Below are positions 1 to 51,289 of a DNA stretch of 51,289 nt, piece after piece (within the stretch, counting starts at the first letter, position 1; the number at the start of each line of letters is the position of its first letter). The notes below the pieces were generated by a model. That model was given only the letters and a program-made list of their open reading frames with translations. It had not been told where the DNA came from and did not search any database. The position numbers and the translations under genes were made by a program. Origin of the DNA: a virus (lineage: Duplodnaviria > Caudoviricetes); IMG/VR virus record IMGVR_UViG_3300037246_001819, positions 1 to 51,289 of that record; one strand, 5' to 3'.

Positions 1-127
1 CCCTACTGACTGCAGCGCCGCTCGAATCGACAAGATGGCCAGGAACGATCTCGTCTGCGGCAATCGCAATGTGATTCACCCACCCGCCAGTCTGATTCCG
101 ATGATCGACGACGCTGATCGCCACGTC
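1..127. repeat. Terminal direct repeat, copy 1 (identical to 51163-51289); circular assembly overlap
   Basis: Exact 127-nt match between window start and end; an ORF reads through the junction. Confidence 0.95.
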
Positions 128-586
128 AAAGACATCGAAGTACCTGTGGACATCAACGGTGTACGGCGGCCAGACGCGTTTGGCGAAGTGGTTTTGCAGG
201 ATTGCGCAGACCGGATCTTCCTTCCAGTTGTTGAGGATGTCGGCCCGTTGCGCAGACCCGCTAACCGTCGCGCCCATGTCGCGGACCTTCTCGACCAGGA
301 CGGGCCGATCATCAAGCGTGGGCGAGTACGTGACCGGCACGCCCTTGAAGGTGATGGGCGGATTATCGAACAAGTCCTGCCCAGACTTGATGATCTTCGT
401 CACGAGCGCCTGATCCTTGGCACTCAACGACGCATAAGGCGTGTTGCCCAAGCCCAGCGTGTGGATGACCCGCTGGACAAGCGCGGCCTGCTCCGGCTCG
501 CGGGAGCATCGAGACCACAGCCAGCCCGCGCCGAGTGCGCCTGCCAGTACACCGACGGCGTTCCTCAGAAAACTGCGTCGATTCAT
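1..586 (-). CDS. 5' part of an origin-spanning 229-aa protein with a twin-arginine (Tat-like) signal; continues at 51162-51059
   Basis: GGAGG RBS then ATG at 586; MNRRSFLRNAVGVLAGALGAGWLW...; no stop to position 1; in frame with ORF 51059..51286. Confidence 0.85.
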   Translation of the reverse strand, partial: MNRRSFLRNAVGVLAGALGAGWLWSRCSREPEQAALVQRVIHTLGLGNTPYASLSAKDQALVTKIIKSGQDLFDNPPITFKGVPVTYSPTLDDRPVLVEKVRDMGATVSGSAQRADILNNWKEDPVCAILQNHFAKRVWPPYTVDVHRYFDVFDVAISVVDHRNQTGGWVNHIAIAADEIVPGHLVDSSGAAVSR

Positions 587-600
587 CGGTCAACCTCCAA

Positions 601-2490
601 TCAAAGTGACCAACCTGATGTCGCGAACTCCAGGCGTTTCGCCTTGGCACGCAAACCACGGCGGAAGGCCAGCGACGTCTCCGGCACACCGTCGTCTTCG
701 GGCCGCTCGCCTTCTGGCCGGCGGACCCGTGGCTGCGAGCCGAGCGCTTTCTCCGCCACCAGGCCGGCAATCACATGATCGCCGTGGTTCTCCGGCTTCG
801 CCGTCGGGTCGTTTCCGGCTACACGCGGTATCGTACCGCTCACGAACCCGCCCGCCGTCTGCCGATAATGAAGCATCTCACGAAAAATGGCCTTGCTCCG
901 ACAAATCACGTTGCCCTCGAGGACCGCATCCCCGAAGTGGCCGATCGCCGCGTCCCGGTTCTTCGGGTTGTTGTGCCAACCCGCCTTCGGGATCACCTTC
1001 GCTGCGCGGCTCTCTTCGTCTGCACGCCGGTACCATAACGCCGAATACCCGATCCCGCGAATCCTTTTCCCGAACCAGCCGCCCGGCCCGTTGGTCTCCC
1101 AGCTCAGCAGCGCGCGGTGGAACCAGCGCGCCATGGCCACACAGAGGCTCGCGAACTCCTTCGGGTCGTGATGGTAGCAGGTCAACTCGGCAACCTGCTC
1201 ACGCGTGTCCTTCCGAAGCACGACCGCAACCGACGGCGTGACGCCAACGCCATTCGAGATGTCCGCGCCGATCACGCAGTCGCCGTCCGGCGGCCCGCCG
1301 TCCGCTCCCAGCCCGCACCACAGTCGCAGCGACCCCGATTCCGCGCGCGTGAAACGCTTCACGTGCGGATCCTCTTCCTCGTCCTCCAAAACCAGGTCGC
1401 CGACCTCCATCGCCGGCCGGGCATCCCGGAGCTCCGCGTTCCGCACCCGTTCCGGCTCCCAGACCGGGAATCCGCTGCCCACGTACTCGATATCCCACTC
1501 GGACGCCATCTGCTGTCGTGTCGCACCCCGCTCGAACTCGTCCCGATCATACAGGATCGAACGCAGCCGCCCATCTTTCACGAACTTGTAACCCGACGGG
1601 AACTGATACTCCACGTCCAGGATCACCAACTGCCCGTCCCGATACTGGTACATCCCCTGATTCAAGATCGGATGGTCCTGCCAGTGCAGCGTGAGCTTGT
1701 CGACGGCCGGCGTACCGGGGGGCGGGTTCATCATCTCGTAGAACCGGCCGTGCGCTCCGTTCGGCGTGCTGATTGCCACCCGGCAATTCGTCGAACGCAT
1801 CGTCGCCGCCCACGCGCCCTCCGCGTCCGTGTCCGAGAACGACGCCAGCTCGTCGATCACGATGGCCAAACGACGCGCCGCCTTGCCCAGATTCTCCGTC
1901 GGAGCCTCGCCGTCAAAAACGGACCCCATCTCTCGGTTGCTCAAGTGGAATTTCCGCCGGTCATGCACCGGAACCATCCAACTCGGCAGGTACCGCAACT
2001 GTAAATCCAGCTTGAAGAACAACGTGTCGACGTCCCCCTCGGACGAGTCCACCAGCTCACGCGTCCGGCTCACCAGCAGGAAGCTCTGGCGCTGGAAGAA
2101 CAGCCACCGCCGGAAACAGCAGCCCGGGATCACCATGAACGTCGCGCCCTCGTCCCGGCTCTTCTCGATCGGGATGTCACGCTTGCCCAGCCGCTTCTCG
2201 ATCTCCAACAGCGTGTCATCCTGGAAATCAAACGTCAGAAATGGGAAGACCGCCGGCCCCATCGGCTCCCGCGGCTCGTACAAGACACAGAACACGTTCA
2301 CGAAATACAGCAAGTCCCGCTTACAGCGTAGCTTCTGCTCGTACTGGAACCCGGGATCGTCTTTGGCCCGCTCCCAGATCGCCTTCCGAAAGGCCAGATT
2401 CGCGTACGGATCCTTCGGCACCAGGCCGTAATGCGGCAGCCCCCGCTCGGCCGCGTAATCCGCCCGTGTCCGGCCCGGGTCAATGCGCAT
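601..2490 (-). CDS. terL: Terminase large subunit
   Basis: Walker A-like EKSRDEGAT, Walker B AIVIDE, motif III STPNG, RNase H-type VIGADISNG, WETNGPG and HGDHVIA; start set at ATG 2490 (ORF open to 2541). Confidence 0.92.
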   Translation of the reverse strand: MRIDPGRTRADYAAERGLPHYGLVPKDPYANLAFRKAIWERAKDDPGFQYEQKLRCKRDLLYFVNVFCVLYEPREPMGPAVFPFLTFDFQDDTLLEIEKRLGKRDIPIEKSRDEGATFMVIPGCCFRRWLFFQRQSFLLVSRTRELVDSSEGDVDTLFFKLDLQLRYLPSWMVPVHDRRKFHLSNREMGSVFDGEAPTENLGKAARRLAIVIDELASFSDTDAEGAWAATMRSTNCRVAISTPNGAHGRFYEMMNPPPGTPAVDKLTLHWQDHPILNQGMYQYRDGQLVILDVEYQFPSGYKFVKDGRLRSILYDRDEFERGATRQQMASEWDIEYVGSGFPVWEPERVRNAELRDARPAMEVGDLVLEDEEEDPHVKRFTRAESGSLRLWCGLGADGGPPDGDCVIGADISNGVGVTPSVAVVLRKDTREQVAELTCYHHDPKEFASLCVAMARWFHRALLSWETNGPGGWFGKRIRGIGYSALWYRRADEESRAAKVIPKAGWHNNPKNRDAAIGHFGDAVLEGNVICRSKAIFREMLHYRQTAGGFVSGTIPRVAGNDPTAKPENHGDHVIAGLVAEKALGSQPRVRRPEGERPEDDGVPETSLAFRRGLRAKAKRLEFATSGWSL

Positions 2491-2740
2491 CGTACGTCGC
2501 CGTCCAGTTCCGGCATAGATCCGTCCGAAAATCCCAGACACAGAAGGCGATGCCGCGATGGCAGACCAGCGGCCCCAGTTGGATACGAACCACTCTCCCG
2601 TGATCCGTGGTCAACCGCGAAAAACGCCACGGTCGGCGCCAGTCCGAAAACAAACTCCAATTCCCGTCAATCCGCAGATGAAACTCCCACGCGCGCCAAC
2701 GCCAGAACAAGTACCATCGCCGTTTGCTTACGAAGATCAT
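2480..2740 (-). CDS. Hypothetical Trp-rich protein
   Basis: Fills the gap between 2737 and terL with overlaps at both ends. Confidence 0.5.
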   Translation of the reverse strand: MIFVSKRRWYLFWRWRAWEFHLRIDGNWSLFSDWRRPWRFSRLTTDHGRVVRIQLGPLVCHRGIAFCVWDFRTDLCRNWTATYDAH

Positions 2741-15012: not shown

Positions 15013-15797
15013 GACTCGCCCTCCTCTGACTCTGGGAAGAACCGCATACCATCGAGCCCAGTTTCCGGCCAGAGATTCCGACCCAGCTCGACAGCTCTCG
15101 GATCAGGGTAGAACCACAAGCCGGGTTGACCGCGTGGTGCGCCGTTCAGGCTGCTGCTCCAGCGGAGCCCATGCAGGCGCAGCCCAGCCAAGGTACCGAT
15201 GCCCTCACCGAACACGACATCCTGGTGCCCGCAGTAAACGTCGCCGCTCGCTCGCGAGACCTGTGCCAGCTTGATTGCGAAGCGCAGTTCCTTGCCACCT
15301 ACCTGCGCGCCCACACGCAGATTATCAAAGCGCACCTCAGCGAAACGCTTGTCCCGGCCGTCAGCCTGAAAGCCGATCGCGGACCAATCGCTTCGGATAT
15401 GACAGCTACGGCAGGCGCAGTTAGTAACAAGCAGCCTCGCGTCTTCCCGGCCGTCGCTGTGACACTGAGTGCCCTTGAGCTGGTAGCCCCAGAACTGGCA
15501 TCCATGCAGGATCGCATCGCCCGCAGACATCAGGGCGATCTCGGCTTTGCCTAGACAGTCGAGCGCGGTGCCGATCAGTATGCTATCCGTAGCACTCACG
15601 AGACAATTCTCTGTTTCTGCCCAGGATGCGAGCAACAGGGAGTCGCGCCCGAAGAGCACGTGCCCGTGAAGGCTGAGCGGTGCCGGCAGGCTGTAAGTTA
15701 CGCCGGGAGCCAGCACGAGCACAGCGCCATGGTTAGCCGACGCGATCCCCTGGAGATCGGCGTCATACGGTACATGGATGATCGCGGGCATGATCAA
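15009..15797 (-). CDS. Hypothetical protein, possible beta-helix fold
   Basis: VLVLAPGVTY motif followed by repetitive beta-strand pattern; coupled to both neighbours. Confidence 0.55.
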   Translation of the reverse strand: MIMPAIIHVPYDADLQGIASANHGAVLVLAPGVTYSLPAPLSLHGHVLFGRDSLLLASWAETENCLVSATDSILIGTALDCLGKAEIALMSAGDAILHGCQFWGYQLKGTQCHSDGREDARLLVTNCACRSCHIRSDWSAIGFQADGRDKRFAEVRFDNLRVGAQVGGKELRFAIKLAQVSRASGDVYCGHQDVVFGEGIGTLAGLRLHGLRWSSSLNGAPRGQPGLWFYPDPRAVELGRNLWPETGLDGMRFFPESEEGES

Positions 15798-17494
15798 GAA
15801 CCTCCACCTTTGCGCTTACTCCAGCCCTGCTTGGCGGCGATCGTGTCGATAATCACGCTCGCCTCTGAACGCGATATGTCGATGGCATAGCCGTTTCGTT
15901 TTAGCACCTTCGCCTGAGCGAACGTGCAGCGACCGGCCTTCACTCGAATCATGCACTGCCCGATCAGCGTCGAAGCGCTGCGCTTCGTCAGGCCATCGAT
16001 GGGCACCTTGAACTTCTTCAGCAACTCAACCTGTTTCGGCGAAGCCGGGACGTCGTGCTCGTAGCCGAGCTCACGGGGCGCGCGCACGCCGAAGACGCTG
16101 AACGGGTCGATCGTCCCACCCTTGCGGTACGTGACCCGAACGCGCTGGTTGGCGTACCGTTCGGCCGCCCTTTCGGCCCGCTTTCGGAGTTCTTCGCGGG
16201 CGTACTCGAGGTGCTCGCTCGGCGAGCCACCCTTGCCGCGGATCCTCTCGTTCGCAAGATCAATCTCCGCATCGCTGTACCGCCCGCCGAGAATATCAAC
16301 CGGCGTCGCGAGGCTGTGCTGACCGCTGTTCAGCGTGAATTCAAAGATCGTGAGGCACGGCTTGCTGCTCTCCGCGATGAGAGCGCGCCGCACTTCCTGT
16401 GGGCTGCAGGATTTGCCGTTGTGCATAATGTGCTGGTCGTCATCCGGGATCGAGTCGACCAAACCAGCAAGCGGGCGAGTGCCGCGGCCGATCATCTGGG
16501 CATGCAGGAGGCGGCTCTTCGTCGGCCGCGCCATCGCGACACACTCGATGTCCGGCACGTCGAAGCCCTCGGTCGGCACGCCAACGCCCACCAGGAACCG
16601 AAACTTGCTGGCCCGGAACCCGTCGAGCATTACCCTCCGCTCGTCGGCCTCCGTCTTGCCCGTGATGACTCTGCTGCAGCCTGGCTCGTAGCCATTCAGG
16701 AGTTCGTCGATCAGCTTCGCGTGATCCACGCCACTCGCAAAAATCAACGTCTTCCGGCCATCGCTTTCCTTGAACGTGGGCTTCGCGATCGCGTGGAACC
16801 GCTCCTCCCCCTTCGTCATCGCAGCGTCCAGATCGCGCGCCACGAGATCCTTCCCGGTCGTGCCGACCCACGAAATATCGACCTGCTCGGCATGAATCGG
16901 CTGGATGTCGAACGGCACCAGCCAGCCGTCCTCGATCGCGTCGGCTATATCGTACCGATACGCTACGGAATCGAAGACCCCACCGAGCGCTGTGCCGTCC
17001 GTCCGATCCGGTGTCGCCGTGCAGCCCATGTACCGGAGCTTGTCGTTCTGTGTGTAATGCTCGATGCAGGCCCGGAAGCTCGCGCCGGTTGCCCGGTGAG
17101 CTTCATCCAGCACGAGCAATCCGAAGTCATTTGGCTTGAACTTCTCGAATCGGCGCCGGCCGTTCCGTTTACTGACCTGACTCTGGACGGTCGATACCAC
17201 GACATCGGCCGGCTGGTACAGCCCGCCGTGGTAATCGCAGACGTGGCGATCGCCCTGCTCGAAGTCGGCGAGTTTGCCGGTCCAATCCCGGGCGGTTAGG
17301 GCGGCTTGGTCGATGAGAATGTCGCGGTGTGCCACGATCATCGTCCGGCCATCGACGTACAAACTCATCGTAACGAAGACCACGGTCTTGCCCGTGCCTG
17401 TCGGCAAAACGAGCAGCGTGCTCCGGTCCTGCTTGAACTCGCGCAGGATCGCGTTGCATGCCGCCTTCTGGTATCCGCGCAGGACGAGTTTCAT
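15794..17494 (-). CDS. Superfamily 2 (DEAH) helicase
   Basis: LRGYQ, PTGTGKT, DEAH, TAT, EGFD, QMIGRGTR. Confidence 0.95.
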   Translation of the reverse strand: MKLVLRGYQKAACNAILREFKQDRSTLLVLPTGTGKTVVFVTMSLYVDGRTMIVAHRDILIDQAALTARDWTGKLADFEQGDRHVCDYHGGLYQPADVVVSTVQSQVSKRNGRRRFEKFKPNDFGLLVLDEAHRATGASFRACIEHYTQNDKLRYMGCTATPDRTDGTALGGVFDSVAYRYDIADAIEDGWLVPFDIQPIHAEQVDISWVGTTGKDLVARDLDAAMTKGEERFHAIAKPTFKESDGRKTLIFASGVDHAKLIDELLNGYEPGCSRVITGKTEADERRVMLDGFRASKFRFLVGVGVPTEGFDVPDIECVAMARPTKSRLLHAQMIGRGTRPLAGLVDSIPDDDQHIMHNGKSCSPQEVRRALIAESSKPCLTIFEFTLNSGQHSLATPVDILGGRYSDAEIDLANERIRGKGGSPSEHLEYAREELRKRAERAAERYANQRVRVTYRKGGTIDPFSVFGVRAPRELGYEHDVPASPKQVELLKKFKVPIDGLTKRSASTLIGQCMIRVKAGRCTFAQAKVLKRNGYAIDISRSEASVIIDTIAAKQGWSKRKGGGS

Positions 17495-21640: not shown

Positions 21641-23155
21641 TCAAATCTGTAGCAGGCCCTGCGGTGGCCCCTGGTCGTACGCCTCTCCCCGGAGATCGCC
21701 ATCATCGGCCTCGGCTGTGAGCAAGTACACCTCTCTCTCGACGGCCAGTTCGTGTAGCTGACGACGAGTTTCGGGCGACAGTTCGCCGTACGCGGCTTGC
21801 GGTAGCACGATCAGCCGATTCCGGCTGGCAGCGATTCCCAGGATGACCGGCCATCGCTCCCCATCAGACAAGTCCTCAAACGGCTCCTCGGAGCTGCGAT
21901 CGGTCGCGATCACCAGCCGCGGGTCGCCGTCTGGATTCGGCACTATGAACAGCGGGCAATCGGGCACGCTCGCTACGGCGTCGGCGAGCACATCGCGGCC
22001 GGCTGCCCGAGCAGCCTCACGCAGCCGCGCGGCACGCTGCCCAGCTTCCTTGGCTTCATCGCTCGACACCGCCGCGCGCTTCTGAGCCGCCAGGGCCTCT
22101 CGGACCTTGACGCCGTACATGACCGCCCCTTGTGCCGTCTCGCATCGGTCGTGCGCTTTGACCAGTTCTGCGCCAGTCGGCATCTGCACATCCGCGCCAG
22201 CCTTGATCGTTGCCTCCCACTTCGCGAGGGTTTCGGCCTGACGAAAGGCCGATAAAAAAGCGTCCGCCGCGCGGCCATGCGAAGCCTCCGCACTAAGGAG
22301 GCAGCTCTCTGCTTCCGCAAGAGCATCCTTGCACTCCTGCACGCGGGCCTCCCAATCCGCCGCATCCCCAGAACAGGTAGAAACCGCCCCTTCCAGCTCC
22401 GCCAGGTCGGGCCCGCGTCCAAGGGCGTCGAGTTCAGCTTGAGCCTTTCCAGCCGCGGCAACTACCTCGGCAGCGTCCCTGTTCCGTTGCTGCAACGCAG
22501 CCCGGTGCTCGCCCGCGGCCCCGAGCTCAACACTCAGCGCGCTCTCGTCATGCGGCGCCGCCAGGTCCACACCTTCCACGAGCTGTACCGCCGCCCGTGC
22601 ATCGGCCAGGCGGCTGTCCTTCACTCGTTCGTGCTCCTGGGCCCGGCGCTCGACAGCCCGCTTGATTCGCGCGGCCATCTCAACCAGGTCGTCGGTCTCC
22701 AGGTCGTGCGTGCTGACGATTTCGCGAAACGCATCGGCCCCGCCAACTACATCGTGAAATCGCGAGGCGTCGGCAGCAACGCCGATCAACCTGAGCAGCA
22801 CGTTGATCCGGTGCCGATCGCGGATCACCGCCGTCTTGAACTTCGGCGAGTGCAACGCCGCGATATCCAGGTCGCCGAGCCCGTCAACAGTGATCGCGCC
22901 TTCTTCCTGGATCCGCTTCGCAATAGTCAGCACTTTTCCAGCAACGGTGGCCTCACCGCGCCGGGTCGCATCACGCTTCGTCGGCTTGATGTCGGTGCGG
23001 CCATCGGTCGCCAACTGCACGGTTCGCAGGACCGTCGTCTTACCCGCACCTTGTTTGCCCCGTAGGACGTGCAGACCTGGGCCGGTCATCTTGTACTCGA
23101 ACTCTATTACTGGGCCGATGTCTCGCACTGCGATCAAGGTTTCTGCCTTACTCAT
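21641..23155 (-). CDS. SMC/Rad50-like ABC-type ATPase with coiled coil
   Basis: Walker A GKQGAGKTT, long Ala-rich coil, signature-like LSDGER; AAGGAG RBS. Confidence 0.8.
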   Translation of the reverse strand: MSKAETLIAVRDIGPVIEFEYKMTGPGLHVLRGKQGAGKTTVLRTVQLATDGRTDIKPTKRDATRRGEATVAGKVLTIAKRIQEEGAITVDGLGDLDIAALHSPKFKTAVIRDRHRINVLLRLIGVAADASRFHDVVGGADAFREIVSTHDLETDDLVEMAARIKRAVERRAQEHERVKDSRLADARAAVQLVEGVDLAAPHDESALSVELGAAGEHRAALQQRNRDAAEVVAAAGKAQAELDALGRGPDLAELEGAVSTCSGDAADWEARVQECKDALAEAESCLLSAEASHGRAADAFLSAFRQAETLAKWEATIKAGADVQMPTGAELVKAHDRCETAQGAVMYGVKVREALAAQKRAAVSSDEAKEAGQRAARLREAARAAGRDVLADAVASVPDCPLFIVPNPDGDPRLVIATDRSSEEPFEDLSDGERWPVILGIAASRNRLIVLPQAAYGELSPETRRQLHELAVEREVYLLTAEADDGDLRGEAYDQGPPQGLLQI

Positions 23156-23180
23156 ACCGCTGCTCCTTCGATTGCCAAGA

Positions 23181-23310
23181 ATGCGGCGCGCCGGACTCGA
23201 ACCGGCCCCTTCCATCTCCCAGAGGCGTAACCGCTCCGGGGCTAGCTGTTGGCCTGGCACCTAGCAATGTTGGATAGGTCTTCCAACGTCATGTTACGCC
23301 GCCGCCGCAT
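23181..23310 (-). ncRNA. tRNA-like structured RNA (acceptor-like stem plus T-arm, non-canonical interior)
   Basis: GCCGG-TTCGAGT-CCGGC T-arm next to an ATGCGGCG/CGCCGCAT stem; no D or anticodon arm. Confidence 0.6.
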
Positions 23311-23668: not shown

Positions 23669-23910
23669 TGGCCTTCTCCGGGCGTGTCGGGCTGATCGCC
23701 CAACTCCTTTGCTACCACTTTTGCCACCCAACTCCTCCAGCAATCTTCGCACTGGTCGCGAGGCGCATCCACGGCCTCCTCGCCCGGTGCAAAAAACGAA
23801 CTCTTGATGTGAAGAATGCGGTGATCGACCCTCAGGTTCGCCTTCCAAGGTGTGCCCGCCTCATGCCGCCTCATTTTCTTGCCGCAATGATCGCATGTAA
23901 CTTTAATCAC
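23665..23910 (-). CDS. Zinc-finger protein
   Basis: CDHC...CEDC; GTGA coupling; AGGAG RBS. Confidence 0.7.
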   Translation of the reverse strand: MIKVTCDHCGKKMRRHEAGTPWKANLRVDHRILHIKSSFFAPGEEAVDAPRDQCEDCWRSWVAKVVAKELGDQPDTPGEGQ

Positions 23911-24728
23911 AACGCTGCTCCTGTCGTGTGAACGGTGCGCCCGCGAACGTACGGGCACGAATCGTAGTAGCCGCACCATTTCGGGCCACACCACCAGTCC
24001 GAGCGGCGGGCCGGCGTAAACACCCCGCTCTCGACTACCTTGGCAGCGTTCTCGAGCCGACGCGCGAAAATCTCAACGTCCACCGCGTCGCGGATCGTAG
24101 CTTGTTGCTTGAGCACCGGACCCGCCTTCAGATCGACGATGCAGTCCAACCACATCGCGGTCGGGAGCTCGCCGACCTGAGCGTACTTCGCGAGCGCGTA
24201 CATGGTGAGCTGGTCCGAGTAGTCCGCCTCACCCTGGCTCGGGCTCTTCCCCTTGGTCTTCAGGTCGCGAAGCACCGGCCCCAGTTCCTCGACGTCGATT
24301 ATGCCCACAAAATCAAACGGGTACCCTTCGCACTCGATGACCCAAGACCGCTCGACCGCGATCGGCTTTAGCAGCGGCGCCAGGTAGCCCGCGTGGAACT
24401 TGGACAGCCTGACGACCTTATCGACGGCCTCCCCGCGAACCACAGCCTCGCCCTGCTTACGCTCGTCGTTGTTCAGTCCGACCCCTTCATAGTCCCAGCG
24501 AGCAACCAGAGCGTCGCGTGCCAACTGGGCGCACTCGTCAACGCTCAGCAGATCCCCGGTGTCGATCTTTTTCTGGAGGGAATCGCGTGCAGCGTCATGC
24601 ACCGATGAGCCGACGGTCATCGCGATTGCCGGCGGGACGATCTCGCCCTCGACGTAGCGGCGCCGGTACTGCTCGCCGCACTTGTGCAGCATGTCGAGAG
24701 CCGACTGGTGGAATTGAGGCTTGCTCAT
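23907..24728 (-). CDS. PD-(D/E)xK exonuclease (RecB/Cas4-like)
   Basis: N-terminal Cys, GSSVH, GIID, DLKT, QLTMY, WCGPKWCGYYDSC. Confidence 0.9.
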   Translation of the reverse strand: MSKPQFHQSALDMLHKCGEQYRRRYVEGEIVPPAIAMTVGSSVHDAARDSLQKKIDTGDLLSVDECAQLARDALVARWDYEGVGLNNDERKQGEAVVRGEAVDKVVRLSKFHAGYLAPLLKPIAVERSWVIECEGYPFDFVGIIDVEELGPVLRDLKTKGKSPSQGEADYSDQLTMYALAKYAQVGELPTAMWLDCIVDLKAGPVLKQQATIRDAVDVEIFARRLENAAKVVESGVFTPARRSDWWCGPKWCGYYDSCPYVRGRTVHTTGAAL

Positions 24729-42351: not shown

Positions 42352-43347
42352 CTATCGCAGCACGCCCCCAACGGTCACGTAAATGTCCCCGGCGTGCGAC
42401 ATGCCGGAATGAACTCCCCGGCCGCCCGGTACGCCGAACGATTCGGCCGCATGAGCCTCCCGATCAAACAGGATCGCGGGCGCGAGGTGAGTCATAAATG
42501 CCTGATACTCCGGTCCCCGGCCATCTTGCGTGCGTTCCTCGGCCACGGCTAGGCACGCCTGCAAGATCAGTTCGGAGTGGTCGGCCGCCCCCGGGAAGAC
42601 TTTGTTCGTGGTGTCGTCAAACTCGCTCAGCCGCACGCTGTAGCGATAGGTGAGCGGGTAGTTCGTGTCCGGCGCCGGGTACACCAGCAGGTCGAATTCC
42701 TGCGTCGCGATCTGCGACGGCGTAAGCGGCCGGATCGCCGCGAGTGACGTGACCCCGGTTCCGGTACTCCAGCGGCGCAGCCGGCGAATCTCGGTTTCGC
42801 TCCTGATGTTGACCGGCGGATAGCCACTTTCGGCCGCGTGTGTCATCGGGCCGACCATGGCGCCGAACGCCGCTGGCAGCCGGTAGGCTCCGTCTTGCGT
42901 GACGCTGCACTCGGCCTCGTCCACCTCTCCGCTGGCATCTCCAGTGACAACGCAAACGGTCGTGCTGGTCACGGCCGTAATCGTGTATTCGTTCGACCCG
43001 ATGGTCAGTATCACGCCTCCTTCGTCGACCATGTTGTCGTAGAACATCGCGTCATCGACGGTGACGGTAGACAAGTTGGTAGGTATATCGTGGACGGGCG
43101 CGCCGTCAAGCGTGCTCGAGACCGAAGGCCAGATGTTGATCGTGGCGATCGGTTTGAGGAAGGACCATTCATGCACCCGCCGCATCCCTTGCAGGAGCGG
43201 CGGGCGCACGAACAGGTTGTACCCGGAATTGATGATGCTCGTCAGGAGCGTCTTCTCGTTGGCACTCGGCAACGACGCATACGCCGTGTAGCCCAAGCCC
43301 AGCTTGTAGGCGACCCGCTGAACGACATCACCAAATCCGTATTCCAC
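42352..43347 (-). CDS. Head-tail adaptor (tail tubular A-like)
   Basis: Helical N-terminus with HEWSFL, YRLP..F, LVYPAPD..Y; downstream of the capsid genes. Confidence 0.75.
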   Translation of the reverse strand: MEYGFGDVVQRVAYKLGLGYTAYASLPSANEKTLLTSIINSGYNLFVRPPLLQGMRRVHEWSFLKPIATINIWPSVSSTLDGAPVHDIPTNLSTVTVDDAMFYDNMVDEGGVILTIGSNEYTITAVTSTTVCVVTGDASGEVDEAECSVTQDGAYRLPAAFGAMVGPMTHAAESGYPPVNIRSETEIRRLRRWSTGTGVTSLAAIRPLTPSQIATQEFDLLVYPAPDTNYPLTYRYSVRLSEFDDTTNKVFPGAADHSELILQACLAVAEERTQDGRGPEYQAFMTHLAPAILFDREAHAAESFGVPGGRGVHSGMSHAGDIYVTVGGVLR

Positions 43348-43356
43348 GCCGGGCTC

Positions 43357-44184
43357 CTAGAGTGCAGCCGCCAGTCTCCACCAGTCGATGTATACCGTGT
43401 TGGCGGCGCCCTCGGCGTTGTTCATGCCAAACATCGGAGCCATCAGTTGCTCGTCAGGGAAATTGGTGTCACCCGGCACGGCAGAATCGGCCAGGACCAC
43501 GCCATCGGCGTAGAAGTACACGGTCGTCCCGTCGAAGTACATGCCGACCTTCTTCCAGGTCAGCGCAACAAGCGTGATCGCGTCAGTCGCGACTTCGACT
43601 ACCGCGCCGCCATTGAGGCTGTGAACGGTGCTCAGCTTGTCACCGTCAGCTTCGTCGCGCCAGAACCCGATGAAGTCCTTGTCGGCGCAAACGCCCGCAT
43701 CGTCGAGCACGCCGTCGCTAATGGCCGTCCCGGCCTCCATCAGGCCACAGAACGCGCCGCATTGCGTATTGGTAATCACGTCGACCGCGATGCGGGCCTC
43801 AAACCACCAGGGCTTCAGGTAAGTCGCCTGGCCGGCGGCGATGACACCGACGTTGCCGCCCATGAAAACCTGGTCGTCGTCGTCGGTGTCCGTCACCAGA
43901 AGCAGGACGCCGACCTGCGGACCAGATCCGGCAGGAAGCAGGGCGGCTCCCGAGCCATCCGCGATGGCACAGCCGGTGTCGACGAAAGTCTGGTAGTTCT
44001 GCATCGTCACTTCGGCCGCAACTGCGCCGGGGCAGACGATGAAGTCATCGAAGAAGGTCACGCCGAGTTCGGGATCGCGGACCATCTCATCCCATGGGCA
44101 GTTCTCCCAAATGGCCGGAGACGGTCCGCGTCCAGCGGTCGTTCCATATGCCCGCTTAGAACGCATCATTATGCACACCTCCAT
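43357..44184 (-). CDS. Capsid decoration/minor structural protein, paralog 2
   Basis: Highly similar over its full length to 44189..45010. Confidence 0.75.
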   Translation of the reverse strand: MEVCIMMRSKRAYGTTAGRGPSPAIWENCPWDEMVRDPELGVTFFDDFIVCPGAVAAEVTMQNYQTFVDTGCAIADGSGAALLPAGSGPQVGVLLLVTDTDDDDQVFMGGNVGVIAAGQATYLKPWWFEARIAVDVITNTQCGAFCGLMEAGTAISDGVLDDAGVCADKDFIGFWRDEADGDKLSTVHSLNGGAVVEVATDAITLVALTWKKVGMYFDGTTVYFYADGVVLADSAVPGDTNFPDEQLMAPMFGMNNAEGAANTVYIDWWRLAAAL

Positions 44185-45525: not shown

Positions 45526-46560
45526 CTACGCAGCCGTGGACATCTCGAAGCCCGCTTCACGCGGGTTGAAGACCACCAGGTTGAAACTGGTGTCGATCCA
45601 GTGCGCGTACGAACGCGGCTGGTACGGCAACCGCTGGGCCGGAAGCTCGTTCATAAACTCGTTCGTCAGGAACGTGAACTTCACCTGGTCCCAGTTGATC
45701 CCGTAGAACGGGTCATTGCTGTCGCTGTCCAGGTACGGCGTGTACGCGATCGGATTGCCGTGGAACAGCACCCGGCCTTCGAGCGCCGTCAGGTCCGGCC
45801 CGAGCCGGTCGTTCTGGTTCTGGGCAAGCTCGGTGAGCAGTTCCCACACGTTATAGTTCGTGTAGTAGCCCATCTTCCTCCCCCCGCCGGTCGTCCCCGG
45901 AGTCGGGTTCGGGTACGGGTTGAGGAATCGGCTCTTGTTGGCCAGTTCGCGTGCCTTGCGCACGAAGTCCGTACGCGAGACGTTCGTGTACTGGCCCGTC
46001 CAGCTCTTCCAGGCTGCGTAGTCGCCCCGGCTGATGCCGGCAACATTCGCAAACCCGGTCGGGTTGTGCCCGTTCTGGCCGACCGTCGCGTTGTGAGTGA
46101 AGTAGTACAGCAGCCCGTAGGGATCGTCCCCGGTGCCGCCGGTGGCCCAGAAGTACCGTTCCATCTGGTCCGCCAGGTCTTGGAAAGCGCCGAGTCGTCG
46201 CACGTTGACGATATTGACGATCCGCGTCTTCTCGTTCGATTGGAAGGCCGCCTCAAGCTCGTTGCTGACCCAGTAAGCGGTGACGTGTCGCCAGGGCACG
46301 TTGGCCTCGTCGAGAAGCATCGGCACATCGACATTCCGCTTCATGTACAGCCCGACCGCCTGAGCGGTATCGGTTTTTTTCACCTTGACCTGCCAGGTTA
46401 TTTTCTCGCCGGCCTGCGAGTTATCGCGCGCGTTGCGCATCAACTCCGGCAGGGCGACGTACTTCTGGTAGTCGAAGGAGATATCGACCCACACGTCCTG
46501 CTTGGCGGAATCTCTTGTCGCCGAAATGAGGTCCGCGTGGTCGCTGATCTGCATTGCCAT
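45526..46560 (-). CDS. Major capsid protein (HK97-like)
   Basis: 344 aa after the scaffold; GEKITW, PYGL.Y, FHGNPI.Y.P.LD, FYGINW. Confidence 0.85.
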   Translation of the reverse strand: MAMQISDHADLISATRDSAKQDVWVDISFDYQKYVALPELMRNARDNSQAGEKITWQVKVKKTDTAQAVGLYMKRNVDVPMLLDEANVPWRHVTAYWVSNELEAAFQSNEKTRIVNIVNVRRLGAFQDLADQMERYFWATGGTGDDPYGLLYYFTHNATVGQNGHNPTGFANVAGISRGDYAAWKSWTGQYTNVSRTDFVRKARELANKSRFLNPYPNPTPGTTGGGRKMGYYTNYNVWELLTELAQNQNDRLGPDLTALEGRVLFHGNPIAYTPYLDSDSNDPFYGINWDQVKFTFLTNEFMNELPAQRLPYQPRSYAHWIDTSFNLVVFNPREAGFEMSTAA

Positions 46561-48044: not shown

Positions 48045-48245
48045 CTATTTGGATTTCTTGGCCTTGGCAACCTTCTCCAGTTCCTCGGCCTTGATGCGCT
48101 GCTCCTTCGCCATTCGCATCGCGGCGATCAGCGCGCGGTTCATCCGCTTTTTGTCGCGCTTAATCTCACCAGCGCGGGCCAGCGTGTCCGCGTCGGATTC
48201 AGCTTCCCATTCCTTGTCAGTTTTCGGCGCAGTAGCTGCCATCAC
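48045..48245 (-). CDS. Hypothetical basic protein
   Basis: EWEAESDADTL..A.EIK.D..R; GGAGG RBS. Confidence 0.7.
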   Translation of the reverse strand: MMAATAPKTDKEWEAESDADTLARAGEIKRDKKRMNRALIAAMRMAKEQRIKAEELEKVAKAKKSK

Positions 48246-48622: not shown

Positions 48623-48624
48623 GG

Positions 48625-48906
48625 TCAGCCGTCCTCGACGATCGTCGGCACGGTTTCCTTCAGCGGCTCGACTGCCCGCGTTTGGAAATACTCGGACATC
48701 GCGAACGCGAGATTGATGAGTTCCTTGCACTTCGGCAGATTCGGCGTATCCTGCTCCCTGCCCAGTAGACAATGCAGCATCCCCATCGCCATGTTGGCGC
48801 GGCCCTGAGCAGCCTTCACCACCTGCTTCGCGTGCTGCTCCATTATCTGGTCAAGATGCACACCGCTCCCTGGCGGGAGCCCTGGGTTGTTCATGCGACC
48901 GCTCAT
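48625..48906 (-). CDS. Hypothetical protein
   Basis: ATGA coupling to the portal; AGGAG RBS. Confidence 0.7.
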   Translation of the reverse strand: MSGRMNNPGLPPGSGVHLDQIMEQHAKQVVKAAQGRANMAMGMLHCLLGREQDTPNLPKCKELINLAFAMSEYFQTRAVEPLKETVPTIVEDG

Positions 48907-50627
48907 GCGATTTCTCCTGGTTCGCTACGGTTGCCGGCGCCCATCAACTGTGCGGTCAGCGCGTCGTCCTGGTTCTCTTGCGACCGACCAGCGGCCGGCT
49001 CTCTGGGTGGACCGGCCTGCGGCGGCGGTTGGAGTTCGATCTGCGGCTCACGCCGGGTTGTCGTCTTGAAGATTTCAGCCAGTTCCGGCTGATCGCGGAG
49101 CCGGCTCAGCAGCCGGACGATTTCGGCAACGTCGATTGTCCCGCCCTGCGCTTGATACAGGGGATAAAGCGACATGAGCATCTGGATCGACTGCAAGAGC
49201 GACGCCATCCGCTCCTCTGGACTGCGATGCTGCAGCGCGTACACATCGACCTGAACGTCGTGCTCGAGGAAGCTGCCCAAGCGTGTTTCGGGGGTCCACG
49301 GTAGCGGAACCTCATAGGTCAGACCGCGCCGCTGGATCTTCTCAAAGAACTGCCGTTCGCGGATCGGGTCGGTCCACTCGTACCACGCCAACGCTTTCAC
49401 GATCCCGCGCGAGAAGTCCTCGACCCGCTTACTCATCGCCTTCATGCGTTTGGAGGCCGCCCGGCTCAGAATCCGGTCCTGACCCAGCGTCTCGCTTGGT
49501 GCCCGCATCCCGCCCATGATCTCAATCCCGCCGCCGAGCCAACTGAACAGGCTGCGCATCTGGATCACCGCGCCCGCCAGGTCACCCCCGATCCCGCCAA
49601 TCCGGTACTGTTTCACCGGGTCGGGGTTGCCGGTCCCGCGCAGCCATTCGCCGTCGAACGCCTTGTTGAGCCGGTCAACCAGATCCTGATCGTCGGCCTG
49701 GGTCAGCCCGACCTCTTTGGTTCGTTCGATTCGACCGAGCACTTTGCACATGGCGGTGTTCGCGCTCTGGTGCATCGCCTTTAGGATCGCCAGCGGAGAA
49801 ATCTGCGAGAGTTCGCCCGGGATGTCGTTGTACGTCAGATAGTGGTACGGCCCGACCTCCGGCCCGTCCCAGTCCTTCTCGTCGAGCACGTTCCAGGTCT
49901 TCGGCTCCATCGTGACGATCTTGCCCGAATCGCCCTCCATCGGAAGCCAGGCCATGGCGAGTTGCGTATGCGGTAGGTAGCGGTCCTTCTCGGATCGCGT
50001 GTCCTTGCCCGTGGGCAGCCCGGTGGAGCTGATAACGTCCTGGAGCTTTTGCGCGCGGAGTTCCTTGCGCGCCTTACGATTGAACCCCTTGAATTCCTGA
50101 GCCCAGTCGAGCGGTACCGTGAAAATCTCGCCAGAGAAAGTGATATAGGGCCAGCGCTCGGCCTCCACATCGTAGAAGAAGCGGTTCATCGGCACGGCGC
50201 GCACCGAGGTAGCGCTGGTCTGGATCGTACCCAGCCCCTCGACGTCGACCTCACCGGTCGTTTCTTCGGTGACTCGCACCACGCCCATCAAGAACAGCGA
50301 GTCGCCCAGAGCAGACTCCACCTCGCGTGAGGCGTGCGTCTCGATGATCCGTTCGTTGGTCCCGCGTTCGAGCCCACGCGCGGCTGCAGTCGCCGCCGGG
50401 TGTCGCGGTGTCACCAGTACCCGAAGGTCGCCCGGCATGAGTTCCTGTTGGTACGTGTTCCGGGCCACCTCAAGCAGGTTCACCGGCCTCGGCATGTCGT
50501 CCGACCCGTCCGGGTGCTGGTCGGCCATCACTTCTTGGATCAGGCTCCTGCGCTTGCGTCGGTGCTTCTCAAGCACCTGGGTCTGTGCGTCCTCGATCAC
50601 CTTACCAAGCGTCTTGCGCGTTTCCAT
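48903..50627 (-). CDS. Portal protein
   Basis: 574 aa between terminase and scaffold; PVNLL, FFYD, SETLGQD.IL, Gln/Pro-rich tail. Confidence 0.85.
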   Translation of the reverse strand: METRKTLGKVIEDAQTQVLEKHRRKRRSLIQEVMADQHPDGSDDMPRPVNLLEVARNTYQQELMPGDLRVLVTPRHPAATAAARGLERGTNERIIETHASREVESALGDSLFLMGVVRVTEETTGEVDVEGLGTIQTSATSVRAVPMNRFFYDVEAERWPYITFSGEIFTVPLDWAQEFKGFNRKARKELRAQKLQDVISSTGLPTGKDTRSEKDRYLPHTQLAMAWLPMEGDSGKIVTMEPKTWNVLDEKDWDGPEVGPYHYLTYNDIPGELSQISPLAILKAMHQSANTAMCKVLGRIERTKEVGLTQADDQDLVDRLNKAFDGEWLRGTGNPDPVKQYRIGGIGGDLAGAVIQMRSLFSWLGGGIEIMGGMRAPSETLGQDRILSRAASKRMKAMSKRVEDFSRGIVKALAWYEWTDPIRERQFFEKIQRRGLTYEVPLPWTPETRLGSFLEHDVQVDVYALQHRSPEERMASLLQSIQMLMSLYPLYQAQGGTIDVAEIVRLLSRLRDQPELAEIFKTTTRREPQIELQPPPQAGPPREPAAGRSQENQDDALTAQLMGAGNRSEPGEIA

Positions 50628-50639
50628 GGCAATCCACCA

Positions 50640-51062
50640 TCAAATCGGGAGCACCGGTCGCGTTCCGGCGACCCGGGGGTCGTCCGGGTCGTTCTTTAAG
50701 GTCAACTCCAACTCGACGGGCGCGCCAGCCAAGTCCATATGCCCACAGAGCACCGCAAGTTCCGTCCGCATACTACGGCCCATCTGCTCGATCTTCGCCT
50801 TCAGGTCCGCCGCGCGCCCGGGCGCGACCACCGCGAGCGTCACGCCCTTGATTTTCCGCTCGATCCGTTCGGGCATCCGTTCAAGGCTGACGCCTTCTCT
50901 GAGTGTACCGCTCACCCGGCAGCTCAGCAGCAGCGTGAACTTGCCCGGCTCGGCCTCTTCGAGTTCCATCGTCCAGTCCGATAGCGTCGGCTGAATCTCC
51001 ATCTTCACAATGGCTGCGCGAATCCGCTCAGCCGGGCCTTCAGTCTTCGGTGCAACGCTCAT
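50640..51062 (-). CDS. Hypothetical protein
   Basis: AGGAG RBS, ATGA coupling. Confidence 0.65.
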   Translation of the reverse strand: MSVAPKTEGPAERIRAAIVKMEIQPTLSDWTMELEEAEPGKFTLLLSCRVSGTLREGVSLERMPERIERKIKGVTLAVVAPGRAADLKAKIEQMGRSMRTELAVLCGHMDLAGAPVELELTLKNDPDDPRVAGTRPVLPI

Positions 51063-51162
51063 GCTTGTACTCCTGTCATCAACTGGAGCCAATCTTGTGT
51101 GAAGCCTTCGGCAGCCGGCCAGAGTCGCAGGGCTTTGAAAGCGTCGTCGAACTTCTTGTCCA
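51059..51162 (-). CDS. 3' part of the origin-spanning Tat-signal protein (starts at 586)
   Basis: In frame across the 127-nt overlap. Confidence 0.85.
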
Positions 51163-51289
51163 CCCTACTGACTGCAGCGCCGCTCGAATCGACAAGATGG
51201 CCAGGAACGATCTCGTCTGCGGCAATCGCAATGTGATTCACCCACCCGCCAGTCTGATTCCGATGATCGACGACGCTGATCGCCACGTC
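51163..51289. repeat. Terminal direct repeat, copy 2
   Basis: Identical to 1-127. Confidence 0.95.

What the first reader, a model, noticed from the sequence alone, without database searches (positions are those of the whole stretch)
1..586. Tat-signal protein built from copied fragments of the phage's own adaptor and capsid proteins
Seen: closing the circle gives a 229-aa ORF (586 to 1, then 51162 to 51059) between terL and the portal block. It starts MNRRSFL plus a hydrophobic stretch. Next comes VQRVIHTLGLGNTPYASLSAKDQALVTKIIKSGQDLFDNPP, which matches the adaptor N-terminus VQRVAYKLGLGYTAYASLPSANEKTLLTSIINSGYNLFVRPP. The match is visible in the DNA too (about 426-475 vs 43271-43320). Directly after is FKGVPVTYSPTLD, matching FHGNPIAYTPYLD of the major capsid protein (7/13 identical). 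Established: RRxFL is the twin-arginine export motif, and virion proteins are known triggers of host sensors such as CapRel and Avs. Inference: a membrane-targeted mosaic of self virion epitopes, perhaps a decoy for immune sensors, a superinfection-exclusion factor or a membrane tether for assembly.
Basis: partly seen in the sequence, partly recalled or inferred. Interest (0 to 1): 0.82.

Follow-up and report, generated by a model that had tools for sequence, protein, structure and literature searches.

The report
Phage export-signal protein carrying virion-protein fragments
A small phage gene next to the terminase gene encodes an export-signal protein whose middle part is an old in-frame copy of the start of the phage's own tail adaptor; related phages carry pieces of their capsid or terminase protein there instead, an unexplained pattern.

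Summary
The 229-aa ORF across the circle junction is real. It has a good ribosome site, an ATGA overlap with the next gene, coding-type GC3 and syntenic homologs. Its N-terminus is a twin-arginine-type signal, just above the TIGR01409 cut-off and not found by Pfam.

Residues 36-78 are a diverged in-frame copy of adaptor residues 8-51: 25/44 aa, 99/129 nt, 0/300 shuffles reach it. The capsid match alone is no better than shuffles genome-wide (53/300). It is weakly supported against a capsid profile (5/500), and the motif recurs in homologs.

The pattern generalises. Of 9 Tat-like ORFs beside terL in related phages, 6 carry a significant fragment:
- Adaptor: 1.
- One capsid segment: 3, one of which matches its own capsid best of 66.
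- Another capsid segment: 1.
- TerL: 1, weaker.

The gene evolves much faster than its neighbours (30% identity against 75-83%).

Function is unknown. My best guess (0.4) is a Tat-targeted bait or mimic of morphogenesis proteins. The main rival (0.3) is neutral filler in a tolerant linker; dN/dS of about 1 fits that. No library or paper search found anything like it.

The parts
1..586 (-). ORF229, codons 1-195 plus the first base of codon 196. The ATG is at 586..584.
51059..51162 (-). ORF229, rest of codon 196 to codon 229 and the stop (51061..51059), reached by closing the circle. The same letters as window 1..127 recur at 51163..51289.
506..586 (-). Residues 1-27: twin-arginine-type signal or anchor. 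It consists of MNRRSFLRN, a Gly/Ala-rich 15-residue hydrophobic stretch, then basic residues. No AxA site is seen by eye.
   Evidence: 24 of 27 residues identical in P0002 and P0003, 16 of 27 in P0034
353..481 (-). Residues 36-78: diverged in-frame copy of the adaptor N-terminus (the cassette).
   Evidence: In a relative from run X2, window 355..515 is replaced by 105 other letters.
305..355 (-). Residues 78-94 (ITFKGVPVTYSPTLDDR): a family motif that aligns with capsid-profile positions 264-280. Weak.
   Evidence: the motif is also in P0003 and L018_A
1..241 (-). Residues about 116-195 of the conserved C-terminal domain, which continues at 51162..51062. In the P0034 model it is helix, three strands, helix, with pLDDT about 80.
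   Evidence: no structural relative at E<=0.001
43195..43326 (-). Donor segment: adaptor residues 8-51. It is conserved throughout the adaptor family.
42352..43347 (-). Adaptor-like gene (331 aa).
   Evidence: homologs P0005 and P0010 reach Pfam SU10_adaptor at 30.9 and 33.3 bits against a gathering score of 27. The window's own protein gives no Pfam hit at E<=1.
45526..46560 (-). Major capsid protein, HK97 fold (344 aa). The segments copied in the relatives' proteins are residues about 87-163 and 182-225. The segment 264-280 is the weak match in ORF229.
   Evidence: (366 PDB matches at E<=0.001, capsid proteins at the top)
601..2541 (-). Large terminase, directly upstream of ORF229.
   Evidence: phrog_2, E 5e-11
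50640..51062 (-). Downstream gene (140 aa, no family). Its ATG overlaps the ORF229 stop. It is syntenic in L036 and G001.
48903..50627 (-). Portal-like gene (574 aa), named by position and length only.
   Evidence: no family hit; 52% identical to the G001 counterpart

Best explanation
ORF229 belongs to a very small, fast-evolving family of accessory proteins encoded beside terL. The phages concerned are uncultured, from marine sediment, and have an HK97-fold capsid and an SU10-type adaptor.

Shown:
- The protein has a twin-arginine-type N-terminal signal or anchor, a variable cassette and, in the window's subclade, a small alpha/beta C-terminal domain.
- The cassette is repeatedly made of in-frame, sense copies of conserved segments of the phage's own morphogenesis and packaging proteins. 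These are the adaptor N-terminus here, two different capsid segments in relatives, and probably a TerL segment in one relative.

Inferred:
- The protein is made late with the structural genes.
- It is taken to the Tat translocon and held at, or moved across, the cytoplasmic membrane by an apparently uncleaved signal.
- Its cassette works as a bait or mimic of virion-protein segments. The bait would engage a factor that recognises those segments, such as a host sensor of late phage proteins or a competing element's protein.

The swapping of the copied protein between close relatives would then reflect an arms race.
For: Real gene with conserved ends in synteny.

Signal:
- TIGR01409 is at or above its cut-off in 4 of 9 Tat-like ORFs, below it in 2, and gives no hit in 3.
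- The RRxF[LF] motif and the hydrophobic stretch are kept in all 8 aligned N-termini, from phages whose capsids are only about 30% identical.

Self-fragments, found in 6 of 9 ORFs:
- ORF229 to adaptor: 0/300 and 0/500 shuffles.
- P0034 and P0037 to capsid 182-225: 52.4 and 43.9 bits, 0/300; 34.5 and 30.5 bits against the capsid profile, 0/500.
- L018_A to its own capsid, same segment: 30.0 bits, 0/300, and its own capsid ranks first of 66.
- G001_110 to its own capsid 87-163: 1/300; 14.8 bits against the profile, 0/500.
- P0002 to TerL: 26.9 bits, 0/300; 2/500 against the TerL profile.

The same capsid segment occurs in three ORFs from two distant clades, and two members (G001_110, L018_A) have no C-domain. 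Both points argue against mere spacer junk.

Fast evolution: window against L036 gives TerL 78%, downstream gene 74% and portal 83% identity, but this protein only 30%.

Cassette swap between conserved flanks in an independent study's contig.

MCP and the portal adaptor are among the phage proteins that bacterial Avs sensors detect (abstract of bioRxiv 10.64898/2026.01.04.697583). A capsid protein activates CapRel (start of abstract of PMC9712102).
Against: - No export, binding, expression or phenotype was observed.
- dN/dS of the adaptor copy against its source is 1.01 (43 codons), which is what neutral drift gives.
- The copied pieces are core elements of their folds: a strand plus the spine helix, an A-domain strand plus helix, and what are probably helices of the adaptor's helix bundle (inferred, not modelled). 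The linker is modelled as disordered, with pLDDT below 50 at residues 18-78 of P0034.
- Avs sensors are described as recognising structure (abstract). They are also cytoplasmic (recalled), whereas Tat export would put the bait outside.
- 3 of 9 Tat-like ORFs show no fragment: P0003, L018_B and L005_55.
- Pfam TAT_signal is below its gathering score in all 8 proteins scanned, best 14.6 bits against 22.7.
- Two related loci that contain terL (L041, L044) have no such ORF.
Confidence: 0.4

Rival explanations
1. Neutral filler. The working parts are the signal and, where present, the C-domain. The stretch between them tolerates any open sequence and collects pieces of the phage's own DNA through illegitimate or template-switch recombination. 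These pieces then decay.
For: - dN/dS is 1.01 and 21 of the 25 identical residues use identical codons, so the copy is fairly recent and drifting.
- The linker is predicted to be disordered.
- Relatives replace the cassette by unrelated sequence of another length.
- P0003, L018_B and L005_55 have no detectable fragment.
Against: - All significant fragments are sense and in the donor's own reading frame, and no out-of-frame match was found by six-frame search.
- The same 40-residue capsid segment recurs in P0034, P0037 and the distant L018_A, and tracks the owner's clade or its own capsid.
- G001_110 and L018_A consist of little more than the signal plus the fragment.
- Capsid-invariant residues are retained in the copies (by eye against alignment A6).
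Confidence: 0.3
2. Assembly or packaging helper. This would be a membrane-anchored protein that binds the phage's own capsid, adaptor or terminase subunits through segments resembling them. It would tether or time head and tail assembly at the membrane.
For: - It sits in the terL-portal block and is translationally coupled to its neighbours.
- The fragments track the phage's own proteins.
- T4 proheads are said to start on the inner membrane (recalled, no call).
Against: - Morphogenesis factors are normally conserved, yet this gene is the fastest-evolving in its block.
- It is absent from the related loci L041 and L044.
- Which protein is mimicked differs between phages with near-identical capsids. 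P0039 is 91% identical to the window's capsid and appears to lie on P0002's contig, judged only by equal contig length and source.
- The predicted topology would put the mature part outside the cytoplasm.
Confidence: 0.15
3. Archive for gene conversion. The diverged copies would serve as donor cassettes, letting the phage change several residues of a sensed or targeted segment of its capsid, adaptor or terminase gene in one recombination step.
For: - DNA identity (77%) is higher than protein identity (57%), with exact runs of up to 13 nt.
- The copies cover the most conserved segments of their donors.
- The analogy is to the silent pilin cassettes of Neisseria (recalled).
Against: - The copies sit in frame inside a conserved ORF with an export signal, which an archive does not need.
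- The exact runs are short for homologous recombination.
- Older copies (G001_110) are saturated at synonymous sites, where the dS formula failed.
Confidence: 0.05
4. Artefact. The ORF would be an assembly chimera or a chance open frame in a GC-rich genome.
For: - The genome is 62% GC and full of long spurious frames.
- The ORF spans the contig ends.
Against: - The copy is 77% identical to its source, not 100%.
- A second assembler reproduces window 1..2600 without a difference.
- The ORF has a ribosome site, a coupled stop/start and coding-type GC3.
- Homologs from other samples, two confirmed in the same synteny (L036, G001), have matching N- and C-termini.
Confidence: 0.02

Closest known systems
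Twin-arginine (Tat) signal peptides, uncleaved Tat signal anchors and 'hitchhiker' co-export
   Same: It has the [ST/N]-R-R-x-F-[LF]-[KR] motif, a moderately hydrophobic Gly/Ala-rich h-region and basic residues after it. TIGR01409 is reached. Tat exports folded complexes in which only one partner carries the signal (abstracts of PMC4273604 and PMC10924467).
   Different: It is phage-encoded, sits beside terL, has no cofactor enzyme domain and fails the Pfam model. The passages of the 2026 Tat review that mention phage describe no phage-encoded Tat substrate of this kind. Export was not tested.
Phage late proteins as triggers of bacterial sensors (Avs families, CapRel; Lit with the Gol peptide of the T4 capsid protein)
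   Same: The copied proteins (capsid, portal adaptor, large terminase) belong to the set that such sensors detect. Sources: abstract; start of abstract of PMC9712102. TerL sensing by Avs1-3 and the roughly 30-residue Gol peptide are recalled.
   Different: Those are host proteins sensing whole phage proteins in the cytoplasm. My paper searches listed no phage-encoded bait made of fragments of its own triggers, and nothing here shows an interaction.
Phage mimic or decoy counter-defence proteins and fast-evolving accessory genes
   Same: It is small, rapidly diverging and variably present, and lies between conserved core genes. Accessory genes of this kind are thought mostly to counter defences or other viruses (start of abstract of bioRxiv 10.1101/2023.04.06.535777).
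   Different: There are no PADLOC, Pfam or PHROG hits apart from the signal model and one AbiEii hit for P0003 at E 0.028. Known mimics that I recall imitate DNA or signalling molecules rather than the phage's own structural proteins.
Signal-anchor-release (SAR) domains and cleavable signals of phage lysis proteins
   Same: It has an N-terminal, weakly hydrophobic Gly/Ala-rich helix after basic residues. SAR features are as described in PMC9239132 (passages read).
   Different: There is no muralytic domain. The gene is not in a recognisable lysis cassette. The twin-arginine consensus is conserved across the family.
SU10/T7-type portal adaptor (donor of the copied segment)
   Same: The copied 44 residues are the conserved N-terminus of the adaptor family. 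Homologs reach Pfam SU10_adaptor. The SU10 adaptor has a helix-bundle domain that contacts the nozzle, a fibre dock and an embracing loop (PMC9509320, passages read).
   Different: Only the first 44 or so residues were copied, so the piece cannot form the adaptor fold. That these residues lie in the helix bundle is inferred, not modelled here.

Membership tests
Tat (twin-arginine) signal, TIGR01409 / PF10518 | Twin-arginine consensus S/T-R-R-x-F-L-K near the N-terminus | tested here: met
   ORF229 has N-R-R-S-F-L-R at residues 2-8. RRxF[LF] is kept in all 8 aligned N-termini.
Tat (twin-arginine) signal, TIGR01409 / PF10518 | Curated HMM score | tested here: inconclusive
   TIGR01409 scores 17.4 bits against a cut-off of 16.7. 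Across the 9 Tat-like ORFs, 4 are at or above the cut-off, 2 are below and 3 give no hit. Pfam PF10518 gives no hit for ORF229 at E<=5, and the best of the 8 scanned is 14.6 bits against a gathering score of 22.7.
Tat (twin-arginine) signal, TIGR01409 / PF10518 | Moderately hydrophobic h-region followed by a c-region with a signal-peptidase site | tested here: inconclusive
   The h-region AVGVLAGALGAGWLW has a mean hydropathy of 1.57. Basic residues follow it. No AxA site is seen by eye, so it may be an uncleaved anchor. No SignalP or TatP was available.
Tat (twin-arginine) signal, TIGR01409 / PF10518 | Export that depends on TatABC and on the arginine pair | not testable with these tools
   Needs reporter fusions in tat+ and tat- cells.
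SU10-type portal adaptor (PF24175), for the donor gene 42352..43347 | Pfam model reached | tested here: inconclusive
   The window protein gives no hit at E<=1. Its homologs P0005 (68% identical) and P0010 reach 30.9 and 33.3 bits against a gathering score of 27. A PDB sequence-profile search found no adaptor.
HK97-fold major capsid protein, for 45526..46560 | HK97 fold | tested here: met
   The AF2 model has pLDDT 73.7. Foldseek against the PDB gives 366 matches at E<=0.001, with phage capsid proteins at the top, including T5, HK97 and SU10. The Atlas neighbours are named capsid protein.
Large terminase, for 601..2541 | Family profile | tested here: met
   phrog_2 terminase large subunit, E 5.2e-11.
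Bacterial lipoprotein signal | Lipobox L-[AS]-[GA]-C at the end of the signal (motif recalled) | tested here: not met
   The sequence before Cys27 is W-S-R, and the cysteine is not kept in P0002, P0003 or P0034.
SAR endolysin / lysis protein | Muralytic or holin domain behind the N-terminal helix | tested here: not met
   No Pfam, PHROG or NCBIfam domain was found. The C-domain model has no PDB relative at E<=0.001.
Known anti-phage defence proteins (PADLOC) | Match to any of the 5027 models | tested here: not met
   0 hits for ORF229 and for 5 of the other 6 proteins scanned. P0003 alone has an AbiEii hit at E 0.028.

The most novel reading that the evidence does not exclude
A 'bait and expel' counter-defence. 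The Tat signal is there because Tat, alone among export routes, carries folded complexes. The cassette imitates the segment of the capsid, adaptor or terminase protein that a cytoplasmic host sensor, or a satellite's hijacking protein, grips. The phage protein binds that factor and drags it through the Tat translocon out of the cytoplasm as a hitchhiker, or jams it at the membrane. Swapping the cassette retargets the device to another sensor. This would explain why phages with near-identical capsids carry different fragments.
Probability: 0.07. Interest if true: 0.95.

Novelty: categorically new. Interest (0 to 1): 0.72.

Why it matters
If the cassette is functional, this is a compact, modular device: an export signal plus a swappable imitation of one of the phage's own core proteins. 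It would point to which segments of capsid, adaptor and terminase proteins matter to whatever recognises them. It would also give a sequence rule for finding similar genes in uncultured phages: a Tat-like signal beside terL followed by a self-match.

If the cassette is only filler, the family still shows how new coding sequence is recruited from a phage's own genes into a fast-evolving accessory protein. It would also show that short self-matches inside phage genomes need family-wide controls before they are read as mimicry.

Either way the gene is currently invisible to Pfam, PHROGs, NCBIfam (apart from the signal), PADLOC, the PDB and 50,697 GenBank phage records.

Tried and rejected
Searches and scans that found nothing:
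- Close-relative scans of IMG/VR with ORF229 and with TerL.
- A family-alignment scan of IMG/VR.
- The metagenome scan, which returned only the P0034 contig.
- The 1.84-billion-protein profile search gave 6 hits. One (P0038) is the window's own C-terminal piece. Another (P0036, a 1259-aa repeat protein matched 17 times over 44 profile positions) I dropped as spurious.
- Tblastn of the capsid protein and of ORF229 against 50,697 GenBank phage records.
- A search of G001 with the family profile at E<=10. The positional equivalent there shares only the signal.

Structure and profile comparisons that led nowhere:
- The C-domain has no PDB relative at E<=0.001; the best is CsgE at E 0.05, TM 0.41. 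The Atlas gave nothing usable.
- hhalign of the family against the capsid profile returned only the P0034 segment (E 0.01), because the family's linkers are not homologous to one another. Against the TerL profile it found nothing (E 0.74).
- The idea that P0003 keeps a decayed adaptor module is not supported: it has no adaptor-profile hit.
- The idea that the whole family is a decayed capsid paralog was rejected. The adaptor and TerL pieces do not fit it, the motif order in L018_A is reversed relative to the capsid, and the C-domain has no capsid-profile match.

Jobs that gave no usable answer:
- Complex prediction of the adaptor with ORF229 residues 28-110 returned no verdict.
- No RNA holder was listed for the stretch, so expression could not be examined.
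- The five MAG-derived loci with a related capsid gene showed no Tat-like ORF. Only L041 and L044 include terL.

The genomes that own P0002, P0003, P0034 and P0037 therefore could not be read. Their fragments were compared with the window and G001 genomes and with a panel of 66 capsid proteins instead.
- No paper supplements were consulted.
Full report
**1. The ORF**

The window is an IMG/VR virus record with direct terminal repeats. Bases 1..127 are identical to 51163..51289, so the unique circle is 51,162 nt.

On the minus strand an ORF starts at 586, runs to base 1 and continues at 51162 to a TGA at 51061..51059, giving 229 aa.

Several features mark it as a real gene:
- GGAGG lies 7 nt before the ATG, which follows the terL stop by 14 nt.
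- Its stop overlaps the ATG of the next gene as ATGA.
- Its GC1/2/3 values (0.63/0.44/0.73) follow the pattern of the terminase, portal, capsid and adaptor genes.
- The part gained by closing the circle aligns with the C-termini of homologs from other samples.

A contig of 21,340 nt made by another assembler from run X1 covers window 1..2600 without a difference and continues beyond position 1. X1 is probably the source sample, so this checks the assembly and is not an independent observation.

**2. The signal**

Residues 2-8 are NRRSFLR. They are followed by AVGVLAGALGAGWLW (mean hydropathy 1.57) and then basic residues.

TIGR01409 gives 17.4 bits against a curated cut-off of 16.7. Pfam's TAT_signal gives nothing for this protein, and at most 14.6 bits (gathering score 22.7) among the 8 proteins scanned. 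Of the nine Tat-like ORFs discussed below, 4 reach the TIGR01409 cut-off, 2 fall just short and 3 give no hit.

I see no AxA site and no lipobox. An uncleaved Tat-type anchor is therefore my reading, and it is an inference.

**3. The adaptor copy**

The evidence that residues 36-78 copy adaptor residues 8-51:
- BLASTP against the 331-aa protein at 43347..42352: 25/44 identical, E 2e-11.
- Genome-wide six-frame search: 47.0 bits, while 300 shuffles of the linker reach at most 26.2.
- Profile of 14 adaptor homologs: 23.9 bits, 0 of 500 shuffles.
- In an all-against-all of 614 six-frame ORFs, the only repeats in the genome are this one and a pair of tandem paralogs.

The 331-aa protein itself gets no Pfam hit. 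Its homologs at 68% and 39% identity reach SU10_adaptor. The copied N-terminus is conserved throughout that family, so the adaptor is the donor.

In DNA the two copies share 99/129 bases. Of the 25 identical residues, 21 use identical codons. dS is 0.276 and dN is 0.279, a ratio of 1.01. So this is a fairly recent copy with no sign of purifying selection on its protein sequence. It is also far too diverged to be a misassembly.

**4. The capsid match in this protein**

FKGVPVTYSPTLD against FHGNPIAYTPYLD is there (7/15, pairwise E 0.01). It does not survive a genome-wide test: it is not listed at E<=10, and 53 of 300 shuffles do as well somewhere in the genome.

Against a profile of 23 capsid homologs it lands on the homologous positions 264-280, with 5 of 500 shuffles reaching its score. 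The same motif in P0003 lands there too, at 23 of 500.

A distant relative's ORF (L018_A) has KVYFKGQEVVMVPRMDEH, which matches the G001-type capsid protein (P0041/L004) at residues 261-281 with 9/18 identical.

I read this as an old motif intrinsic to the family, possibly of capsid origin. It is not a copy of this phage's capsid gene.

That 46560..45526 encodes the capsid protein is now tested. An AF2 model (pLDDT 73.7) gives 366 PDB matches at E<=0.001. Phage HK97-fold capsids lead the list, SU10 among them.

**5. The family**

The family is tiny:
- Two hits among 5.8 billion clustered proteins.
- Six hits in a profile search of 1.84 billion representatives. One of the six is the window's own fragment and one is a repeat-protein artefact that I dropped.

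The members share the signal (24/27, 24/27 and 16/27 identical residues for P0002, P0003 and P0034) and a C-terminal domain of about 90 residues (37-40% identical). They differ between these two parts.

P0034 lies on a 2,093-nt contig with the same gene order: terL end, this gene, the coupled downstream gene, portal start.

Between the window and that contig the identities are:
- TerL: 78%
- Downstream gene: 74%
- Portal: 83%
- This protein: 30%

The nearest complete relative, G001 (TerL 53% identical), has a 110-aa ORF directly after terL. It shares only the Tat-type signal.

A distant relative (L018, capsid 30% identical) has two such ORFs upstream of terL, and L005 has a 55-aa one.

In the six-frame signal-profile scan, six ORFs matched at E<0.1. 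They lie in five sequences: the window, G001, L036, L018 (two ORFs) and L005. Many of the loci scanned are fragments without the terL region.

Two further loci that do contain terL (L041, L044) have none.

**6. The pattern across the family**

I tested the region after the signal in nine Tat-like ORFs. P0035 was left out because it has no signal or linker. The tests were against whole genomes in six frames with 300 shuffles, and against capsid, adaptor and TerL profiles with 500 shuffles.

Six carry a fragment of a morphogenesis or packaging protein:

| ORF | Source of the fragment | Evidence |
|---|---|---|
| ORF229 | Adaptor 8-51 | See section 3 |
| P0034 | Capsid 182-225 | 21/40 identical, E 6e-12 pairwise; 52.4 bits, 0/300; 34.5 profile bits, 0/500 |
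| P0037 | Capsid 182-225 | E 3e-11 pairwise; 43.9 bits, 0/300; 30.5 profile bits, 0/500 |
| L018_A | Same segment of its own capsid gene | 30.0 bits, 0/300 |
| G001_110 | Its own capsid 87-163 | 27.7 bits, 1/300; 14.8 profile bits, 0/500 |
| P0002 | TerL around MASEWDIEYVG | 26.9 bits, 0/300 (maximum 24.6); 2/500 with a TerL profile; the weakest of the six |

Three carry none: P0003 (37/300 and 16/300), L018_B (74/300) and L005_55 (294/300).

In a panel of 66 capsid proteins:
- L018_A matches its own capsid best (ranks 1-2; L018 and L019 are identical there).
- P0034 and P0037 match the window-clade capsids best.
- G001_110 shows no such preference (own capsid at ranks 4-5).

In the capsid model the copied segments are the P-domain strand plus the spine helix (87-163) and an A-domain strand plus helix (182-225). 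These are core elements, not surface patches.

An independent study's contig (run X2) keeps the signal, the FKG motif and part of the C-domain. It replaces window 355..515, that is the end of the signal through the adaptor copy, by 105 other letters. It replaces 230..335 by 373 letters.

**7. What it is and how it may work**

Shown: a real, late-operon gene for a protein with a Tat-type N-terminus. Its variable region is repeatedly built from in-frame pieces of the phage's own core proteins, and it evolves far faster than its neighbours.

Not shown: export, cleavage, expression, any partner or any phenotype.

*Points favouring a functional cassette over filler:*
- The same capsid segment recurs in two distant clades.
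- The copies follow the owner's clade or its own capsid.
- Two members are little more than signal plus fragment.
- Every detected piece is in the donor's frame.

*Points favouring filler:*
- dN/dS is about 1 for the one copy whose donor I could read.
- The linker is predicted to be disordered.
- Three members have no detectable fragment.

The copied proteins are of the kinds that bacterial sensors are reported to detect: the capsid protein and the portal adaptor in the abstract read, the capsid protein for CapRel, and terminase from recall. That makes a bait or mimic role attractive.

There are difficulties. Those sensors are described as recognising structure, and they work in the cytoplasm (recalled), while a Tat signal sends its cargo out. 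The one mechanism that reconciles both is co-export of a bound partner, which Tat is known to do (abstract of PMC4273604). I give that reading a low probability.

An assembly-tether role fits the location of the gene. It does not fit the rapid turnover, nor the absence of the gene from related loci.

**8. Comparison with what is known, and novelty**

The protein and its C-domain have no match in:
- Pfam, PHROGs and PADLOC;
- NCBIfam, other than the signal model;
- PDB sequences or folds;
- the ESM Atlas;
- GenBank phage records.

Three paper searches on Tat signals in phages and on capsid decoys listed nothing that describes such a protein. The phage passages of a 2026 Tat review concern other matters. 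These searches cover open-access text only.

**9. Host and setting**

The stretch is held by marine-sediment metagenome runs.

Five contigs in species-representative genomes encode a related capsid protein (28-33% identical by tblastn):
- Three are from MAGs labelled Planctomycetota (Brocadiaceae, Planctomycetota, Planctomycetaceae).
- One is from Sumerlaeota.
- One is from an unclassified bacterium.

Binning is a weak host clue.

**10. Limits**

- The genomes that own four of the members could not be read.
- Shuffle tests keep composition but not local order.
- About 27 protein-against-profile tests were run (three profiles against nine or ten proteins each), so single results near 2-5 in 500 are only leads. 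These are P0002 against TerL, ORF229 residues 91-108 against the TerL Walker-A-like region, and the FKG motif.
- That P0039 (capsid 91% identical to the window's) lies on P0002's contig, and that P0003, P0005 and P0035 share one contig, is inferred from equal contig lengths and sources only.

Noticed in passing
window 43357-44184 and 44189-45010, minus strand: Two tandem paralogs of 275 and 273 aa lie between the capsid block and the adaptor gene. About 55 N-terminal residues are near-identical by eye. One has a sub-threshold Laminin_G_3 hit (19.5 bits against 27.6). They are the only other repeat in the genome.
   Followed up: partly
window about 263-313 (ORF229 residues 91-108) against TerL around 2140-2190: ORF229 has VEKVRDMGAT, which resembles the conserved IEKSRDxGA[ST] stretch of the TerL family. 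From recall, that stretch looks like the Walker A region. It is 10/20 identical to G001's TerL, pairwise E 0.07, and 3 of 500 shuffles reach the TerL-profile score. It may be a third self-fragment, or chance given the number of tests.
   Followed up: partly
L018 24-302 and 1051-1404; L005 590-757: In more distant relatives the Tat-like small ORFs lie upstream of terL rather than downstream, and L018 has two of them. L005's 55-aa ORF has the best TIGR01409 score of all (21.3 bits) but no self-match.
   Followed up: partly
L038 2350-3084 (G001): G001's counterpart of the downstream 140-aa gene sits in a 244-aa open frame. Its extra N-terminal part looks, by eye and from recall, like a helix-extension-helix DNA-binding motif. 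The window's version lacks it.
   Followed up: no
window 48242-48772, minus strand: A 176-aa ORF after the portal gene has a sub-threshold FmdB-type CxxC zinc-ribbon hit (19 bits against 31.3). G001 has a counterpart after its portal gene.
   Followed up: no
L041-L045: Relatives of the capsid gene sit on MAG contigs labelled Planctomycetota (3 of 5), Sumerlaeota (1) and unclassified bacterium (1). This is a weak hint at the host range of this uncultured phage group. No relative was found among 50,697 GenBank phage records.
   Followed up: partly
window 15794-17494, 21641-23260, 23907-24728, minus strand: The replication and recombination block holds a ResIII/DEAD helicase, a protein with a weak AAA_23 hit and a PD-(D/E)XK nuclease. 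Among the ten large ORFs scanned against Pfam, no integrase-family hit appeared.
   Followed up: no
window 230-335 (ORF229 residues about 85-119): In the X2 relative this stretch, between the FKG motif and the C-domain, is replaced by 373 other letters. That suggests a second variable site in the gene.
   Followed up: no
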